DNA of 13,062 nucleotides from a virus (taxonomy: Duplodnaviria; Heunggongvirae; Uroviricota; Caudoviricetes): positions 1 through 13,062 of the IMG/VR virus record IMGVR_UViG_2529292921_000005; one strand, 5' to 3'. Below the pieces are notes generated by a model. That model was not told the DNA's origin. It saw only the letters and a list, made by a program, of their open reading frames with translations, and made no database searches. The translations under genes and the position numbers were made by a program. Shown piece after piece: positions 100-8,455 of the stretch (position 1 is its first letter; the number at the start of each line of letters is the position of its first letter).

Positions 100-447
100 A
101 TGGTAACGAAAAACATCACTGAACAGCGTGCGGAAGTACGTATTTTTGCCGGTAATGATCCGGCTCATACCGCCACAGGCAGCAGCGGGATTTCCTCGGC
201 AACACCGGCACTGACGCCACTGATGCTGGATGAAGCCAGCGGGAAACTGGTGGTCTGGGACGGACAGAAAGCCGGTAGTGCAGTTGGCATACTGGTACTG
301 CCGCTTGAAGGCACAGAGACGGTACTGACCTATTACAAGTCGGGGACCTTTGCGACGGAGGCAATCCGCTGGCCTGAAAGTGTGGATGAACACAAAAAGG
401 CCAATGCCTTTGCCGGCAGTGCCCTGAGTCACGCGGCGCTGCCGTAA
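100..447 (+). CDS. D: head decoration protein (gpD-like)
   Basis: 115-aa ORF; AGGAGG 12 nt upstream of ATG; motifs DPAHTATG and LTYYKSGTF...WPE match lambda gpD as I remember it; position directly upstream of the major capsid gene. Confidence 0.9.
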   Translation: MVTKNITEQRAEVRIFAGNDPAHTATGSSGISSATPALTPLMLDEASGKLVVWDGQKAGSAVGILVLPLEGTETVLTYYKSGTFATEAIRWPESVDEHKKANAFAGSALSHAALP

Positions 448-455
448 CACGTTAT

Positions 456-475
456 CAGGCCACCGCGGTGGCCTG
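456..475. other. perfect 20-bp palindrome (CAGGCCACCG|CGGTGGCCTG) in the D-E intergenic spacer; possible RNA hairpin or protein-binding site
   Basis: Direct reading: 456-465 is the exact reverse complement of 466-475. Lies between the D stop (447) and the E RBS/start (505). Confidence 0.5.
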
Positions 476-504
476 ACTGATTTCTGAATGAAAGGAACTG
501 ATTT

Positions 505-1533
505 ATGGGATTGTTTACGACCCGCCAGTTACTCGGTTATACCGAACAAAAAGTGAAATTTCGTGCGCTGTTTCTGGAGCTGTTTTTCCGCCGTACGGTG
601 AATTTCCATACCGAAGAGGTGATGCTGGACAAAATTACCGGAAAAACGCCGGTGGCGGCCTATGTCTCCCCGGTTGTTGAAGGAAAAGTGCTGCGTCATC
701 GCGGTGGTGAAACCCGCGTGTTACGTCCGGGCTACGTCAAGCCGAAACACGAATTTAATTACCAGCAGGCGGTTGAGCGTCTTCCCGGTGAAGATCCGGC
801 TCAGCTGAACGACCCGGCCTACCGTCGTCTGCGTATCATCACTGATAACCTCAAACAGGAAGAGCACGCCATTGTCCAGGTGGAAGAAATGCAGGCGGTG
901 AATGCCGTGCTGTATGGCAAATACACGATGGAAGGAGACCAGTTCGAGAAAATTGAGGTCGATTTTGGCAGGTCGACGAAGAATAACATCACTCAGGGTA
1001 GTGGTAAGGAGTGGTCAAAACAGGATCGTGACACGTTCGATCCTACACATGATCTTGACCTCTACTGCGACCAGGCCAGCGGTCTTGTGAATATTGCCAT
1101 TATGGACGGTACCGTCTGGCGTCTGCTGAATGGCTTTAAATTGTTCCGCGAAAAACTGGATACCCGTCGCGGCTCTAATTCGCAACTCGAAACAGCGGTG
1201 AAAGACCTGGGCGCGGTGGTGTCCTTCAAAGGGTATTACGGCGATCTGGCCATTGTGGTGGCAAAAACGTCTTATGTGGCAGAGGACGGTACCGAAAAAC
1301 GTTATCTGCCTGAGGGCTCGCTGGTCCTGGGGAATACGGCAGCAGAGGGCATTCGTTGCTATGGTGCCATTCAGGATGCGCAGGCGTTGTCCGAAGGTGT
1401 GGTGGCCTCTTCCCGTTATCCGAAACACTGGCTGACGGTAGGGGATCCCGCCCGTGAATTTACCATGACGCAGTCCGCGCCGCTGATGGTGTTGCCGGAC
1501 CCGGATGAGTTTGTGGTGGTACAGGTGAAATAA
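505..1533 (+). CDS. E: major capsid protein (gpE-like)
   Basis: 342-aa ORF; GAAAGGAA RBS upstream; near-colinear with lambda gpE (341 aa) including PGYVKPKHE, RRGSNS.LETAVKDLG and TGDPAREFTM.QSAPLM blocks. Confidence 0.95.
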   Translation: MGLFTTRQLLGYTEQKVKFRALFLELFFRRTVNFHTEEVMLDKITGKTPVAAYVSPVVEGKVLRHRGGETRVLRPGYVKPKHEFNYQQAVERLPGEDPAQLNDPAYRRLRIITDNLKQEEHAIVQVEEMQAVNAVLYGKYTMEGDQFEKIEVDFGRSTKNNITQGSGKEWSKQDRDTFDPTHDLDLYCDQASGLVNIAIMDGTVWRLLNGFKLFREKLDTRRGSNSQLETAVKDLGAVVSFKGYYGDLAIVVAKTSYVAEDGTEKRYLPEGSLVLGNTAAEGIRCYGAIQDAQALSEGVVASSRYPKHWLTVGDPAREFTMTQSAPLMVLPDPDEFVVVQVK

Positions 1534-1541
1534 TCCGTGAG

Positions 1542-1570
1542 CGGGGGCGAAATGCCCCCGTGTCTTTTTT
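1542..1570 (+). terminator. intrinsic-terminator-like hairpin plus T tract immediately 3' of the major capsid gene
   Basis: CGGGGGC (1542-1548), loop GAAAT, GCCCCCG (1554-1560), followed by TGTCTTTTTT (1561-1570). Function (partial terminator vs mRNA-stabilising 3' structure) is inferred. Confidence 0.45.
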
Positions 1571-4890: not shown

Positions 4891-7432
4891 TCTTATTATT
4901 GACCTGAGTCTGGATGCGGTCCGTTTCGATGAGCAGATGAGCCGGGTAAGGCGTCATTTTTCAGGACTGGATACTGACGCCAGAAAAACCGCCAGTGCTG
5001 TTGAACAGGGCCTGAGCCGCCAGGCGCTGGCTGCACAAAAAGCCGGGATTTCCGTCGGGCAGTATAAAGCGGCCATGCGAACCCTGCCCGCACAGTTTAC
5101 GGATATCGCCACGCAGCTTGCCGGTGGTCAGAATCCCTGGCTGATCCTGCTGCAACAGGGCGGTCAGGTGAAGGACTCCTTCGGCGGGATGATCCCCATG
5201 CTCAGGGGGCTTGCCGGTGCGATCACCCTGCCGATGGTCGGGGTCACCTCGCTGGCGGTGGCGACAGGTGCGCTGGCGTACGCCTGGTACCAGGGGGATT
5301 CCACGCTTTCAGCGTTTAATAAAACCCTGGTTCTTTCCGGTAATCAGTCCGGACTGACTGCCGATCGTATGCTGACTCTCTCAAGAGCCGGGCAGGCAGC
5401 AGGGCTGACGTTTAACCAGGCGAGAGAGTCACTGGCAGCCCTGGTGAATGCCGGTGTGCGTGGTGGTGAACAGTTTGATGCCATCAACCAGAGTGTCGCG
5501 CGTTTTGCGTCTGCATCCGGTGTGGAGGTGGATAAAGTCGCTGAAGCCTTCGGGAAGCTGACCACTGACCCGACGTCGGGACTGATGGCGATGGCGCGCC
5601 AGTTCCGTAACGTGACGGCAGAGCAGATTGCGTATGTTGCGCAGCTGCAGCGTTCCGGTGATGAGGCCGGGGCCTTACAGGCGGCGAACGATATCGCCAC
5701 GAAAGGCTTTGATGAGCAGACCCGCCGCCTGAAAGAGAACATGGGCACGCTGGAGACCTGGGCAGACAGGACTGCACGGGCATTCAAATCCATGTGGGAT
5801 GCGGTGCTGGATATTGGTCGTCCTGATACCGCGCAGGAGATGCTGATTAAGGCAGAGGCTGCGTTTAAGAAAGCAGACGACATCTGGAATCTGCGCAAGG
5901 ATGATTATTTTGTTAACGATGAAGCGCGGGCGCGTTACTGGGATGATCGTGAAAAGGCCCGTCTTGCGCTTGAAGCCGCCCGAAAGAAGGCTGAGCAGCA
6001 GACTCAACAGGACAAAAATGCGCAGCAGCAGAGCGATACCGAAGCGTCACGGCTGAAATATACCGAAGAGGCGCAGAAGGCTTACGAACGGCTGCAGACG
6101 CCGCTGGAGAAATATACCGCCCGTCAGGAAGAACTGAACAAGGCACTGAAAGACGGGAAAATCCTGCAGGCGGATTACAACACGCTGATGGCGGCGGCGA
6201 AAAAGGATTATGAAGCGACGCTGAAAAAGCCGAAACAGTCCGGCGTGAAGGTGTCTGCGGGCGATCGTCAGGAAGACAGTGCTCATGCTGCCCTGCTGAC
6301 GCTTCAGGCTGAACTCCGGACGCTGGAGAAGCATGCCGGAGCAAATGAGAAAATCAGCCAGCAGCGCCGGGATTTGTGGAAGGCGGAGAGTCAGTTCGCG
6401 GTACTGGAGGAGGCGGCACAACGTCGCCAGCTGTCCGCACAGGAGAAATCCCTGCTGGCGCATAAAGATGAGACGCTGGAGTACAAACGCCAGCTGGCTG
6501 CACTTGGCGATAAGGTCACGTATCAGGAGCGTCTGAATGCGCTGGCGCAGCAGGCGGATAAATTCGCACAGCAGCAACGGGCAAAACGGGCCGCCATTGA
6601 TGCGAAAAGCCGGGGGCTGACTGACCGGCAGGCAGAACGGGAAGCCACAGAACAGCGCCTGAAGGAACAGTATGGCGATAATCCGCTGGCGCTGAATAAC
6701 GTCATGTCAGAGCAGAAAAAGACCTGGGCGGCTGAAGACCAGCTTCGCGGGAACTGGATGGCAGGCCTGAAGTCCGGCTGGAGTGAGTGGGAAGAGAGCG
6801 CCACGGACAGTATGTCGCAGGTAAAAAGTGCAGCCACGCAGACCTTTGATGGTATTGCACAGAATATGGCGGCGATGCTGACCGGCAGTGAGCAGAACTG
6901 GCGCAGCTTCACCCGTTCCGTGCTGTCCATGATGACAGAAATTCTGCTTAAGCAGGCAATGGTGGGGATTGTCGGGAGTATCGGCAGCGCCATTGGCGGG
7001 GCTGTTGGTGGCGGCGCATCCGCGTCAGGCGGTACAGCCATTCAGGCCGCTGCGGCGAAATTCCATTTTGCAACCGGAGGGTTTACGGGAACCGGCGGCA
7101 AATATGAGCCAGCGGGGATTGTTCACCGTGGTGAGTTTGTCTTCACGAAGGAGGCAACCAGCCGGATTGGCGTGGGGAATCTTTACCGGCTGATGCGCGG
7201 CTATGCCACCGGCGGTTATGTCGGTACACCGGGCAGCATGGCAGACAGCCGGTCGCAGGCGTCCGGGACGTTTGAGCAGAATAACCATGTGGTGATTAAC
7301 AACGACGGCACGAACGGGCAGATAGGGCCACAGGCGCTGAAGGCTGTTTATGACGTAGCCCGTAAGGCGGCAATGGATGTTGTGACCGGGCAGATGCGCG
7401 ATGGTGGTCTGTTCTCCGGAGGTGGACGATGA
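4871..7432 (+). CDS. H: tail tape measure protein H
   Basis: 853 aa, identical in length to lambda gpH and near-identical over long stretches as recalled; central coiled-coil region and Gly-rich C-terminal segment; GGAGG RBS. Confidence 0.95.
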   Translation: MSQPVGDLIIDLSLDAVRFDEQMSRVRRHFSGLDTDARKTASAVEQGLSRQALAAQKAGISVGQYKAAMRTLPAQFTDIATQLAGGQNPWLILLQQGGQVKDSFGGMIPMLRGLAGAITLPMVGVTSLAVATGALAYAWYQGDSTLSAFNKTLVLSGNQSGLTADRMLTLSRAGQAAGLTFNQARESLAALVNAGVRGGEQFDAINQSVARFASASGVEVDKVAEAFGKLTTDPTSGLMAMARQFRNVTAEQIAYVAQLQRSGDEAGALQAANDIATKGFDEQTRRLKENMGTLETWADRTARAFKSMWDAVLDIGRPDTAQEMLIKAEAAFKKADDIWNLRKDDYFVNDEARARYWDDREKARLALEAARKKAEQQTQQDKNAQQQSDTEASRLKYTEEAQKAYERLQTPLEKYTARQEELNKALKDGKILQADYNTLMAAAKKDYEATLKKPKQSGVKVSAGDRQEDSAHAALLTLQAELRTLEKHAGANEKISQQRRDLWKAESQFAVLEEAAQRRQLSAQEKSLLAHKDETLEYKRQLAALGDKVTYQERLNALAQQADKFAQQQRAKRAAIDAKSRGLTDRQAEREATEQRLKEQYGDNPLALNNVMSEQKKTWAAEDQLRGNWMAGLKSGWSEWEESATDSMSQVKSAATQTFDGIAQNMAAMLTGSEQNWRSFTRSVLSMMTEILLKQAMVGIVGSIGSAIGGAVGGGASASGGTAIQAAAAKFHFATGGFTGTGGKYEPAGIVHRGEFVFTKEATSRIGVGNLYRLMRGYATGGYVGTPGSMADSRSQASGTFEQNNHVVINNDGTNGQIGPQALKAVYDVARKAAMDVVTGQMRDGGLFSGGGR

Positions 7433-7758
7433 AAACCTTCCGCTGGAAAGTGAAACCCGGGATGGATGTGACATCGGCTCCTTCCGTCAGGGAGGTGCGC
7501 TTTGGTGATAGCTATTCCCAGCGTGCGCCTGCCGGGCTGAACGCTGACCTGAAAACGTACAGCGTGACGCTGTCTGTCTCCCGTGAGGAGGCCACGGCGC
7601 TGGAGTCGTTTCTGGCAGAGCACGGAGGCTGGAAGGCCTTTCTGTGGACGCCGCCTTATGGTTACAGGCAGATAAAGGTGACCTGCGCAAAATGGTCGTC
7701 GCAGGTCAGTATGTTGCGTGTTGAGTTCAGCGCAGAGTTTAAACAGGTGGTGAACTGA
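7429..7758 (+). CDS. M: tail tip protein M
   Basis: 109 aa; ATGA overlap with the H stop; near-identical to lambda gpM as recalled. Confidence 0.9.
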   Translation: MKTFRWKVKPGMDVTSAPSVREVRFGDSYSQRAPAGLNADLKTYSVTLSVSREEATALESFLAEHGGWKAFLWTPPYGYRQIKVTCAKWSSQVSMLRVEFSAEFKQVVN

Positions 7759-8455
7759 TGCAGGATATCCGGCAGGAAACACTGAATGAATGCACCCGTG
7801 CGGAGCAGTCGGCCAGCGTGGTGCTCTGGGAAATCGATCTGACAGAGGTCGGTGGAGAACGTTATTTTTCTGTAATGAGCAGAACGAAAAAGGTGAGCCG
7901 GTCACCTGGCAGGGGCGACAGTATCAGCCGTATCCCATTCAGGGGAGTGGTTTTGAACTGAATGGCAAAGGCACCAGTACGCGCCCCACGCTGACGGTTT
8001 CTAACCTGTACGGTATGGTCACCGGGATGGCGGAAGATCTGCAGAGTCTGGTCGGCGGAACGGTGGTCCGGCGTAAGGTTTACGCCCGTTTTCTGGATGC
8101 GGTGAACTTCGTCAACGGAAACAGTGACGCCGATCCGGAGCAGGAGGTGATCAGCCGCTGGCGCATTGAGCAGTGCAGCGAACTGAGCGCGGTCAGTGCC
8201 TCCTTTGTACTGTCCACGCCGACGGAAACGGACGGCGCTGTTTTTCCGGGACGTATCATGCTGGCCAACACCTGCACCTGGACCTATCGCGGCGGTGAGT
8301 GCGGTTATCACGGTCCGGCGGTCGCGGATGAATATGACCAGCCAACGTCCGATATCACGAAGGATAAATGCAGCAAATGCCTGAGCGGTTGTAAGTTTCG
8401 CAATAACGTCGGCAACTTTGGCGGCTTCCTTTCCATTAACAAACTTTCGCAGTAA
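7758..8455 (+). pseudogene. L: tail tip protein L, disrupted by a 1-nt frame change at the T5 run 7865-7869 (698 nt instead of a multiple of 3)
   Basis: Frame starting at the ATG (7758, TGATG overlap with M) encodes MQDIRQ...GGERYF and then stops at 7961 after unrelated residues; a second frame continues LFFCNEQNEKGEPVTWQ... to the TAA at 8453-8455. The two frames together reconstruct a ~232-aa L-like protein. Confidence 0.75.

What the first reader, a model, noticed from the sequence alone, without database searches (positions are those of the whole stretch)
456..475. Perfect 20-bp palindrome between D and E
CAGGCCACCGCGGTGGCCTG is an exact inverted repeat with no spacer, 9 nt after the D stop and about 30 nt before the E start. 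As RNA it would form a 9-10 bp GC-rich stem. It is not followed by a U tract, so it looks less like a terminator and more like an RNA processing or stability element, a dimeric protein-binding site, or a REP-like element. Perfect palindromes of this length are unlikely by chance.
Basis: seen in the sequence. Interest (0 to 1): 0.35.

Follow-up and report, generated by a model that had tools for sequence, protein, structure and literature searches.

The report
Phage-21 hairpin between D and E
The perfect palindrome is real, but it is the phage-21 version of an ordinary GC-rich RNA stem-loop that lambda-like phages carry between their head-decoration and major-capsid genes; here it lacks the usual run of U, and its role has never been measured.

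Summary
CAGGCCACCGCGGTGGCCTG lies at 456-475 and the perfect palindrome runs to 22 bp (455-476). It sits between the decoration gene (shp/D, 100-447) and the major capsid gene (gp7/E, 505-1533) of a phage-21-type head module. As sense RNA it forms a 9-bp stem with a CGCG loop (-16.8 kcal/mol).

It is not a special site. Lambda, N15, phi80, Gifsy-1 and prophages of about 15 other genera have a GC-rich hairpin at this position. The N15 record annotates its copy as a putative rho-independent terminator. MAFFT aligns the palindrome column for column with the lambda/Gifsy hairpin, and three stem pairs are swapped compensatorily. Loops vary freely.

The phage-21 version differs in its tail. Its U-tract is the weakest of 16 lineages, so it should terminate poorly.

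It is not REP-like, since it is single-copy and always in the D-E spacer (1851 of 5426 complete E. coli genomes). Its half-site is not repeated in phage 21, which argues against an operator. The stem is too short for a typical RNase III site.

The most likely role is read-through punctuation of the Q-antiterminated late mRNA, acting as a barrier to 3' exonucleases. It is a known kind of element and interest is low.

The parts
100..447 (+). Head decoration gene (phage 21 shp, the lambda D homologue), 115 aa, stop TAA at 445-447
   Evidence: ORF; Pfam PF02924 HDPD, E 4e-24; 98% DNA identity to phage 21 shp
455..463 (+). 5' arm of the hairpin (UCAGGCCAC)
   Evidence: pairs with 468-476
464..467 (+). 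Loop CGCG. It is self-complementary, which is why the DNA reads as a spacer-less palindrome. It is the most variable part among close relatives.
   Evidence: variants C10T, C12T and GC>AT all fall here
468..476 (+). 3' arm of the hairpin (GUGGCCUGA)
477..504 (+). Tail and translation-initiation region of E: CUGAUUUCUGAAUGAAAGGAACUGAUUU. There is no proper U-run. The Shine-Dalgarno AGGA is at 493-496.
   Evidence: Sequence; RBS annotated at the equivalent bases of M81255 and OL657228; T-tail score 0.66-1.25
505..1533 (+). Major capsid gene (phage 21 gene 7, the lambda E homologue), 342 aa
   Evidence: Pfam PF03864, E 3e-66; 61% identity to lambda E and 86% to Gifsy-1 E
1541..1561 (+). Companion hairpin directly after the E stop (GCGGGGGCgaaaUGCCCCCGU followed by GUCUUUUUU). 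Together with 455-476 it brackets the capsid cistron.
   Evidence: the equivalent stem-loop is annotated in N15

Best explanation
The palindrome encodes a sense-strand RNA stem-loop in the late mRNA. It is the phage-21-lineage version of the intercistronic 'terminator-type' hairpin that lambda, N15, phi80, Gifsy-1 and many related prophages carry between the decoration gene and the major capsid gene. I rate this identity at about 0.9. The late operon is transcribed by Q-modified RNA polymerase, which ignores terminators (established knowledge for lambda and phage 21). This copy also lacks a U-run. It is therefore read through and persists as a very stable structure in the transcript. Its most likely job is to block 3'-to-5' exonucleases and so protect the D-proximal segment. 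Together with the second hairpin after E, it would punctuate the long late mRNA around the two most abundant head proteins. I rate this function at about 0.45; it is inferred, not shown. The perfect DNA palindrome is a by-product of a self-complementary CGCG loop. The overall confidence given (0.6) is a blend of the identity (about 0.9) and the function (about 0.45).
For: A 9-bp stem of -16.8 kcal/mol forms on the sense strand. A hairpin lies in the D-E spacer of lambda, Gifsy-1, N15, phi80 and prophages of Serratia, Buttiauxella, Erwinia, Kluyvera, Citrobacter, Enterobacter, Klebsiella, Trabulsiella, Pluralibacter, Phytobacter, Aeromonadaceae, Methylorubrum and Vibrio phage K280. The N15 GenBank record annotates both the post-decoration and post-capsid stem-loops as putative rho-independent terminators. 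In 17 lambda-type spacers, all 119 stem cells pair and one pair covaries (AU 8, GC 5, GU 4). All one-sided changes in that set are G.U or U.G wobbles, which pair only in the sense RNA. The loop is hypervariable. A sequence-only MAFFT alignment places the phage-21 palindrome column for column on the Gifsy-1 and lambda-type hairpins: 9 pairs, 97% of cells paired, 5 pairs with compensatory change, covariation 0.451 against 0.256 +/- 0.031, reached by 0 of 500 shuffles. Three of the phage-21 pairs (U-A, C-G, A-U) are compensated swaps. Among 203 phage-21-type loci, the frequent variants hit the loop or the loop-closing pair, while stem-breaking variants are rare. In this window every intergenic gap of 50 nt or more (D-E, E-FI, I-J) holds a strong hairpin, and the short gaps hold none.
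Against: Stabilisation, processing and termination are therefore all untested. The element is dispensable in some relatives. Providencia prophages (82% E identity) have a 26-nt spacer with no hairpin. Chi, PhAER-1 and KLER1-1 lack it, as do about 9 of 13 distinct distant PF03864 modules. Among close relatives the stem is no more conserved than the rest of the spacer, and four rare variants break a stem pair. From memory only (the paper is not held): Sampson et al. 1988 concluded that lambda late-gene output is set mainly by translation initiation, which leaves little room for a large mRNA-level effect. The three phage-21 rows in alignment A3 represent one lineage, so the compensated swaps count as one evolutionary comparison. 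Short GC-rich hairpins could also align by convergence.
Confidence: 0.6

Rival explanations
1. It is a working, if weak, intrinsic terminator. It stops RNA polymerase that has not been modified by Q, such as spurious or leak-through transcription in the lysogen, before it reaches the capsid gene. Q-loaded polymerase reads through during lytic growth.
For: Fourteen of the 16 lineages compared have a textbook U-run after the hairpin, with T-scores of 2.9-5.2. N15 annotates its copy as a putative terminator. The loose consensus scan lists 455-476 as terminator-like. The phage L paper names this as one possible role of intra-operon terminators and says their roles are not known (PMC8022706).
Against: The phage-21 tail (ACUGAUUUCUG) has the lowest T-score of all lineages compared, 0.66-1.25. 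Yet its stem is among the two strongest of the 16 D-E hairpins compared (-16.8 kcal/mol; only an unnamed gammaproteobacterial locus, L282, is stronger at -17.3), and it is present in 1851 of 5426 E. coli genomes. So in this lineage the hairpin persists without the feature needed for termination.
Confidence: 0.2
2. It serves translation of E. A stable hairpin placed 16-33 nt upstream of the capsid start would insulate the E ribosome-binding site from upstream sequence. After endonucleolytic cleavage it could also act as a protective 5' stem-loop for the E message.
For: The distance from stem end to the E start is narrow (15-33 nt in 16 lineages), whereas the distance from the D stop to the stem varies from 3 to 32 nt. 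The region between hairpin and ATG is A/U-rich and carries the Shine-Dalgarno sequence.
Against: A terminator-type hairpin, a U-run and a ribosome-binding site need about 20 nt in any case, so the tight spacing may reflect nothing more than minimal packing. Relatives with 0-26 nt spacers and no hairpin still have to make capsid protein in large amounts. No pairing between the hairpin and the ribosome-binding site is predicted.
Confidence: 0.1
3. It works at the DNA level, as the binding site of a dimeric protein, or as a cruciform or recombination site that requires perfect two-fold symmetry.
For: It is a perfect 22-bp palindrome. The commonest variant (central GC to AT, 30 of 203 loci) is again a perfect palindrome.
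Against: The half-site TCAGGCCACCG occurs nowhere else in the 42.9-kb phage 21 genome beyond the control rate. Homologous hairpins in relatives have unrelated, non-palindromic loops (CUGU, GAA, UAUC and others) and different stem sequences that keep pairing. In the lambda-type hairpins every one-sided stem change is a G.U or U.G wobble, which pairs only in the sense RNA. The doubly changed loop can be explained by two transitions (the intermediate CGUG is seen once) or by template switching within a palindrome.
Confidence: 0.04
4. It is an RNase III processing site that cuts the late transcript between D and E.
For: It is a stable intercistronic stem in a long polycistronic phage mRNA. Phage T7 uses such sites (general knowledge).
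Against: The stem has only 9 continuous base pairs. It reaches 13 only with a 1-nt bulge and two G.U pairs. Natural E. coli RNase III sites span about 20 bp (general knowledge). Relatives have 7-11 bp stems.
Confidence: 0.03
5. It is a REP-like or otherwise mobile palindromic element that landed in the spacer.
For: It is a GC-rich palindrome in an intergenic gap.
Against: There is one copy in the window, one in phage 21, and one in each of two E. coli chromosomes even with 3 mismatches allowed, which matches the reversed-pattern control. The 2879 places found in 1851 E. coli genomes were matched with a 70-nt query that includes the D 3' end, and all 25 listed rows lie under decoration and capsid genes.
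Confidence: 0.01

Closest known systems
Stem-loop between N15 gene 7 (head decoration) and gene 8 (major capsid), annotated in NC_001901 at 5980-6004 as 'putative rho-indep. transcription terminator', together with the same element in lambda (about 6098-6125) and phi80
   Same: It occupies the same position between a PF02924 decoration gene and a PF03864 capsid gene. It is on the same strand and has a GC-rich 8-9 bp stem and a 4-nt loop. It aligns column for column, with compensatory swaps. It is paired with a second stem-loop after the capsid gene.
   Different: Lambda, N15 and phi80 have a U7 run directly after the stem (T-score about 4.7). The phage-21 copy has ACUGAUUUCUG (0.66-1.25). Its stem is stronger (-16.8 against about -12 kcal/mol), and its loop is self-complementary, which gives a perfect DNA palindrome.
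Gifsy-1 D-E spacer hairpin (AAGGCCGCgaaGCGGCCUU)
   Same: This is the closest head module with a different hairpin (E 86% identical). It shares the outer stem AGGCC/GGCCU and lies close to the D stop (3 nt against 7 nt).
   Different: It has a 3-nt loop and a G-C pair where phage 21 has A-U. It has a moderate U-rich tail, UUUAUCGUAUUU, with T-score 3.15.
Intra-operon terminators of P22-like late operons (phage L / P22)
   Same: These are terminator-type hairpins inside a late operon that has a single antiterminated promoter, placed at the end of the procapsid gene module. The authors state that their roles are not known (PMC8022706).
   Different: The head-gene family and the position are different (after the procapsid module rather than between decoration and capsid genes).
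Intercistronic mRNA-stabilising stem-loops (REP in malE-malF; the puf operon hairpin of Rhodobacter). Named from memory, not tested here.
   Same: Each is a stable hairpin without an efficient terminator tail, placed downstream of a highly expressed cistron in a polycistronic mRNA. This is the mechanism proposed here.
   Different: Those elements have measured effects on segmental mRNA half-life, and none has been measured here. REPs are dispersed repeats, whereas this element is single-copy.

Membership tests
Lambda/N15-type D-E intercistronic terminator-type hairpin | Lies in the spacer between a lambda-D-type decoration gene and a lambda-E-type major capsid gene, on the coding strand | tested here: met
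   PF02924 at 100-444 and PF03864 at 505-1530; hairpin at 455-476
Lambda/N15-type D-E intercistronic terminator-type hairpin | GC-rich stem of about 7-10 bp with a 3-6 nt loop, with pairing kept across relatives | tested here: met
   9 bp plus a 4-nt loop. In alignment A3, 97% of 135 cells pair, 5 pairs show compensatory change, and 0 of 500 shuffles reach the score.
Lambda/N15-type D-E intercistronic terminator-type hairpin | Run of U directly after the stem | tested here: not met
   T-tail score 0.66-1.25 against 2.9-5.2 in 14 of 16 lineages
Canonical intrinsic (Rho-independent) terminator | Stable GC-rich hairpin | tested here: met
   -16.8 kcal/mol
Canonical intrinsic (Rho-independent) terminator | U-rich tract of 7-9 nt immediately 3' of the stem | tested here: not met
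   The tail is ACUGAUUUCUG. Only 3-4 of the first 8 bases are U, and none is in the first position when the A476 pair is counted.
Canonical intrinsic (Rho-independent) terminator | Measured release of transcripts at the site | not testable with these tools
REP / BIME-type dispersed palindromes | Many dispersed copies in host intergenic regions | tested here: not met
   One place per E. coli chromosome at up to 3 mismatches, equal to the control. All 25 listed E. coli matches lie under decoration and capsid genes.
RNase III processing site | About two helical turns (roughly 20 bp) of double-stranded RNA | tested here: not met
   9 continuous bp; 13 with a bulge and two G.U pairs
Operator for a dimeric DNA-binding protein | Sequence-specific half-sites, usually repeated in the genome and conserved in sequence among relatives | tested here: not met
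   The half-site is not repeated in phage 21. Relatives change the sequence while keeping the pairing.
mRNA-stabilising intercistronic stem-loop (3' exonuclease barrier) | Stable stem-loop 3' of a highly expressed cistron, without an efficient terminator tail | tested here: met
   D and E are the two most abundant head proteins (general knowledge).
mRNA-stabilising intercistronic stem-loop (3' exonuclease barrier) | RNA 3' ends or an abundance step at the hairpin, and half-life dependent on the stem | not testable with these tools

The most novel reading that the evidence does not exclude
In the phage-21 lineage the D-E hairpin has lost its U-run yet kept, and even strengthened, its stem. It persists in a third of complete E. 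coli genomes. This would mean that the whole class of 'terminators' flanking the capsid gene in lambda-like late operons is maintained for a role independent of termination. On this reading the hairpins after D and after E carve exonuclease-protected D and E messages out of the roughly 20-kb Q-antiterminated transcript. That would add an mRNA-level layer to the stoichiometry of the two most abundant head proteins.
Probability: 0.3. Interest if true: 0.4.

Novelty: new member of a known kind. Interest (0 to 1): 0.15.

Why it matters
It matters little by itself. It shows that a striking perfect palindrome is an ordinary late-operon stem-loop. The equivalent position is already annotated in N15 as a putative terminator, and authors of P22-like genome papers have already remarked on intra-operon terminators in the late operons of those phages. 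Its one useful aspect is as a natural experiment. The phage-21 copy keeps the hairpin without the U-run. Comparing it with lambda's copy in isogenic laboratory constructs could separate termination from RNA-stability roles. The role of intra-operon 'terminators' in phage late operons is a small open question that the literature describes as not known (PMC8022706).

Tried and rejected

2. Literature. Five full-text searches found no paper with RNA ends or stability data for the lambda or phage 21 D-E spacer. Liu et al. 2013 (PNAS, ribosome profiling of lambda) and Sampson et al. 1988 (PNAS) are not held.

3. Rfam. Nothing reached gathering score in the window, Gifsy-1 or phage 21. A 10.5-bit 'isrG' match at 451-483 (E = 5.9, gathering score 100) is noise.

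4. A first collection scan used a pattern with the wrong spacer length and found nothing. It was repeated correctly.

5. I first read locus L034 as a mosaic junction carrying a different hairpin. It is in fact the right end of an IS200C element inserted just 3' of the palindrome. The inference that 'the hairpin travels with the D module' was therefore dropped.

6. The strand-asymmetry test (G.U against A.C) within the close phage-21 family gave one wobble-compatible change against three A.C mismatches. It is uninformative there. Only the lambda-type set shows wobble-only changes.

7. REP-like, operator and RNase III readings were rejected for the reasons given under the rival explanations.

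8. The antisense RNA forms the same stem. By inspection, its tail (UAACGUGUUACGG) has no U-run, so a bidirectional terminator is unlikely.

Full report
**Observation**

The window is the head-tail part of a phage-21-type lambdoid prophage. It is an IMG/VR fragment of 13,062 bp. It is 98% identical over 380-560 to the phage 21 head operon M81255 and to the complete phage 21 genome OL657228.

ORF 100-447 is the decoration protein (shp, the lambda D homologue; Pfam PF02924). ORF 505-1533 is the major capsid protein (gene 7, the lambda E homologue; PF03864). FI follows (PF14000).

The 20-mer CAGGCCACCGCGGTGGCCTG is exactly at 456-475. The perfect palindrome is in fact 22 bp, 455-476. It starts 9 nt after the D stop and ends 29 nt before the E start.

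As RNA it folds into a 9-bp stem with a CGCG loop. The isolated hairpin is -16.8 kcal/mol. No near-copy exists in the window. Only 8 of 2000 Markov simulations of the window gave a spacer-less palindrome this long.

**A hairpin is kept at this position in related phages**

I took the D-E spacers of relatives found by protein similarity in species-representative genomes and in phage records. These lineages all have a GC-rich hairpin in the spacer, usually followed by a run of U:
- lambda, N15 and phi80;
- prophages of Kluyvera, Citrobacter, Enterobacter, Klebsiella, Buttiauxella, Pluralibacter, Phytobacter, Trabulsiella, Erwinia, Serratia and an Aeromonadaceae MAG;
- Gifsy-1;
- two alphaproteobacterial prophages (Methylorubrum, Lichenihabitans);
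- Vibrio phage K280.

The N15 GenBank record annotates the stem-loop after gene 7 (decoration) and the one after gene 8 (capsid) as 'putative rho-indep. transcription terminator'. The two phage 21 records do not annotate the palindrome.

The element is not universal:
- Providencia prophages (82% E identity) have a 26-nt spacer without it.
- Chi, PhAER-1 and KLER1-1 have 0-12 nt spacers.
- In an even sample of 301 gammaproteobacterial genomes, only 4 of about 13 distinct distant PF03864 modules have it.

**Selection acts on RNA pairing**

In 17 distinct lambda-type spacers the two arms (GCCGC/GCGGC core) and the U-run are invariant or nearly so, while the loop differs in almost every sequence. 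All 119 stem cells pair. One pair covaries (AU 8, GC 5, GU 4). Every one-sided change is a G.U or U.G wobble, which would be an A.C mismatch in the antisense RNA or in a DNA cruciform.

MAFFT, working on sequence alone, aligns the phage-21 palindrome column for column with the Gifsy-1 and lambda-type hairpins. On that alignment:
- 97% of 135 cells pair;
- 5 of 9 pairs show compensatory change;
- the covariation score is 0.451 against 0.256 +/- 0.031, and no shuffle of 500 reaches it;
- sliding the partner by one column drops pairing to 47-56%.

Relative to lambda and Gifsy-1, the phage-21 stem carries three compensated swaps (A-U to U-A, A-U to C-G, G-C to A-U). The three phage-21 rows are one lineage, so this is one evolutionary comparison. 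Convergence of short GC hairpins cannot be excluded.

**Variation within the phage-21 family**

Among 203 phage-21-type loci from IMG/VR and genomes:
- the reference 22-mer is in 136;
- a central GC-to-AT variant (loop CAUG, again a perfect palindrome) is in 30;
- G14-to-T or G14-to-C, which opens only the loop-closing pair, is in 25;
- loop changes C10T and C12T occur in a few;
- four kinds of stem-breaking change (G16A, G17A, G17T, T15C) and one wobble-compatible change (C6T) are rare.

Variation is therefore concentrated in the loop, as expected for a hairpin. At this shallow depth, however, the stem is no better conserved than the rest of the spacer. The 'perfect palindrome' is incidental: a 4-nt loop is self-complementary one time in 16.

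**What distinguishes this copy**

Scoring the tail from the end of the GC core, the phage-21 element has the poorest U-tract of 16 lineages. Its score is 0.66-1.25, against 2.9-5.2 in 14 of them; only Trabulsiella guamensis is similar, at 1.56. Its stem is among the two strongest: -16.8 kcal/mol, exceeded only by locus L282 at -17.3, against about -12 for lambda. It should therefore be a poor intrinsic terminator.

It is nonetheless very common. The 70-nt spacer occurs at 2879 places in 1851 of 5426 complete E. coli genomes, and the 25 listed rows all lie under 'head decoration protein | major capsid protein'.

**Rival readings**

- REP-like element: rejected. There is one copy in the window, one in phage 21, and one in each of two E. 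coli chromosomes at up to 3 mismatches, no more than a reversed-pattern control gives.
- Operator for a dimeric protein: unlikely. The half-site is not repeated in phage 21, and relatives keep the pairing rather than the sequence.
- RNase III site: unlikely. The stem is 9 bp, or 13 with a bulge and two wobbles.
- Known RNA family: none matches.
- Safety terminator for polymerase not modified by Q: this remains possible for the class, but it fits this copy poorly because of the tail.
- Role in E translation: suggested only by the narrow distance from stem to ATG (15-33 nt, against 3-32 nt from the D stop to the stem). Minimal packing explains that equally well.

**Mechanism**

Shown here:
- a sense-strand hairpin that is positionally and structurally conserved, with compensatory change;
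- a poor U-tract in this lineage;
- a companion hairpin with U6 directly after E (1541-1561), and another in the I-J spacer. Every gap of 50 nt or more in this operon holds a hairpin, and the short gaps hold none.

From established knowledge: lambdoid late operons are transcribed from one promoter by Q-modified polymerase, which reads through terminators.

Inferred: the hairpin forms in the read-through transcript and blocks 3'-to-5' exonucleases. It would protect the D-proximal segment and, together with the post-E hairpin, bracket the capsid message.

**Earlier notes of this scan**

Earlier notes describe the same palindrome in other genomes and reach the same reading. I treated them as leads only. 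I checked the N15 annotation myself, and I derived the cross-phage comparison and the alignments independently.

**Verdict**

This is a real and selected feature, but an ordinary one. It is a new, unannotated member of the known class of late-operon stem-loops, notable only for lacking the U-run. Interest is 0.15.

Noticed in passing
window 1541-1561 (tail to about 1570): A strong hairpin, GCGGGGGCgaaaUGCCCCCGU, followed by GUCUUUUUU lies directly after the E stop. The equivalent stem-loop is annotated as a putative terminator in N15. Chi, PhAER-1 and K280 also have a post-capsid hairpin even where the D-E one is missing. Another agent of this scan has already followed this up.
   Followed up: partly
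window 9766-9785 (I-J spacer 9748-9807): A third intergenic hairpin, AAACCGCCuccgGGCGGUUU followed by UGUCGUUU (T-score 3.8), lies just before the J ribosome-binding site. Every gap of 50 nt or more in this late operon holds a hairpin.
   Followed up: partly
L290 2547-3262 (E. coli GmM077) and L034 1-430; corresponds to window about 482-483: An IS200C element is inserted 6-7 nt 3' of the palindrome, between D and E. The palindrome/IS200 junction is present at 80% coverage or more in 15 of 5426 complete E. coli genomes and in one IMG/VR contig. The terminal hairpin of the IS (CCUCCGGCuauGCCGGAGG plus a U-rich tail) then sits in front of E. Whether this site is a preferred IS200 target was not examined.
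   Followed up: partly
window 464-467 and the same bases in 203 related loci: The hairpin loop is a hot spot. All loop substitutions are C-to-T or G-to-A transitions. The commonest variant changes both central bases (CGCG to CAUG), which recreates a perfect palindrome (NcoI instead of SacII site). The single-step intermediate CGUG is seen once. Cytosine deamination in an exposed loop, or template switching within the palindrome, could explain this.
   Followed up: no
L093-L108, L126-L134, L137 (genome-contig hits at 59-63% identity to the window's E protein): Lambda-type E genes appear on short, low-coverage contigs of unrelated organisms, including Chromatium, Neobacillus, Kitasatospora, Paenibacillus, Bradyrhizobium, Akkermansia, Prevotella and Corynebacterium. 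The one locus checked (Shewanella, L099) has a D-E spacer identical to lambda's. These are most likely lambda control-DNA contamination of the assemblies, not prophages.
   Followed up: partly
window 7758-8455: The ORF list shows tail gene L split into two overlapping frames (7758-7961 and 7790-8455). Earlier notes of this scan attribute this to a one-base loss in a T-run. I did not re-examine it.
   Followed up: no
window 477-483 and 498-504: The heptamer CTGATTT occurs twice in the 28-nt tail: directly after the hairpin and directly before the E start codon, on either side of the Shine-Dalgarno sequence. Its significance is unknown, and it may be chance in an A/U-rich leader.
   Followed up: no
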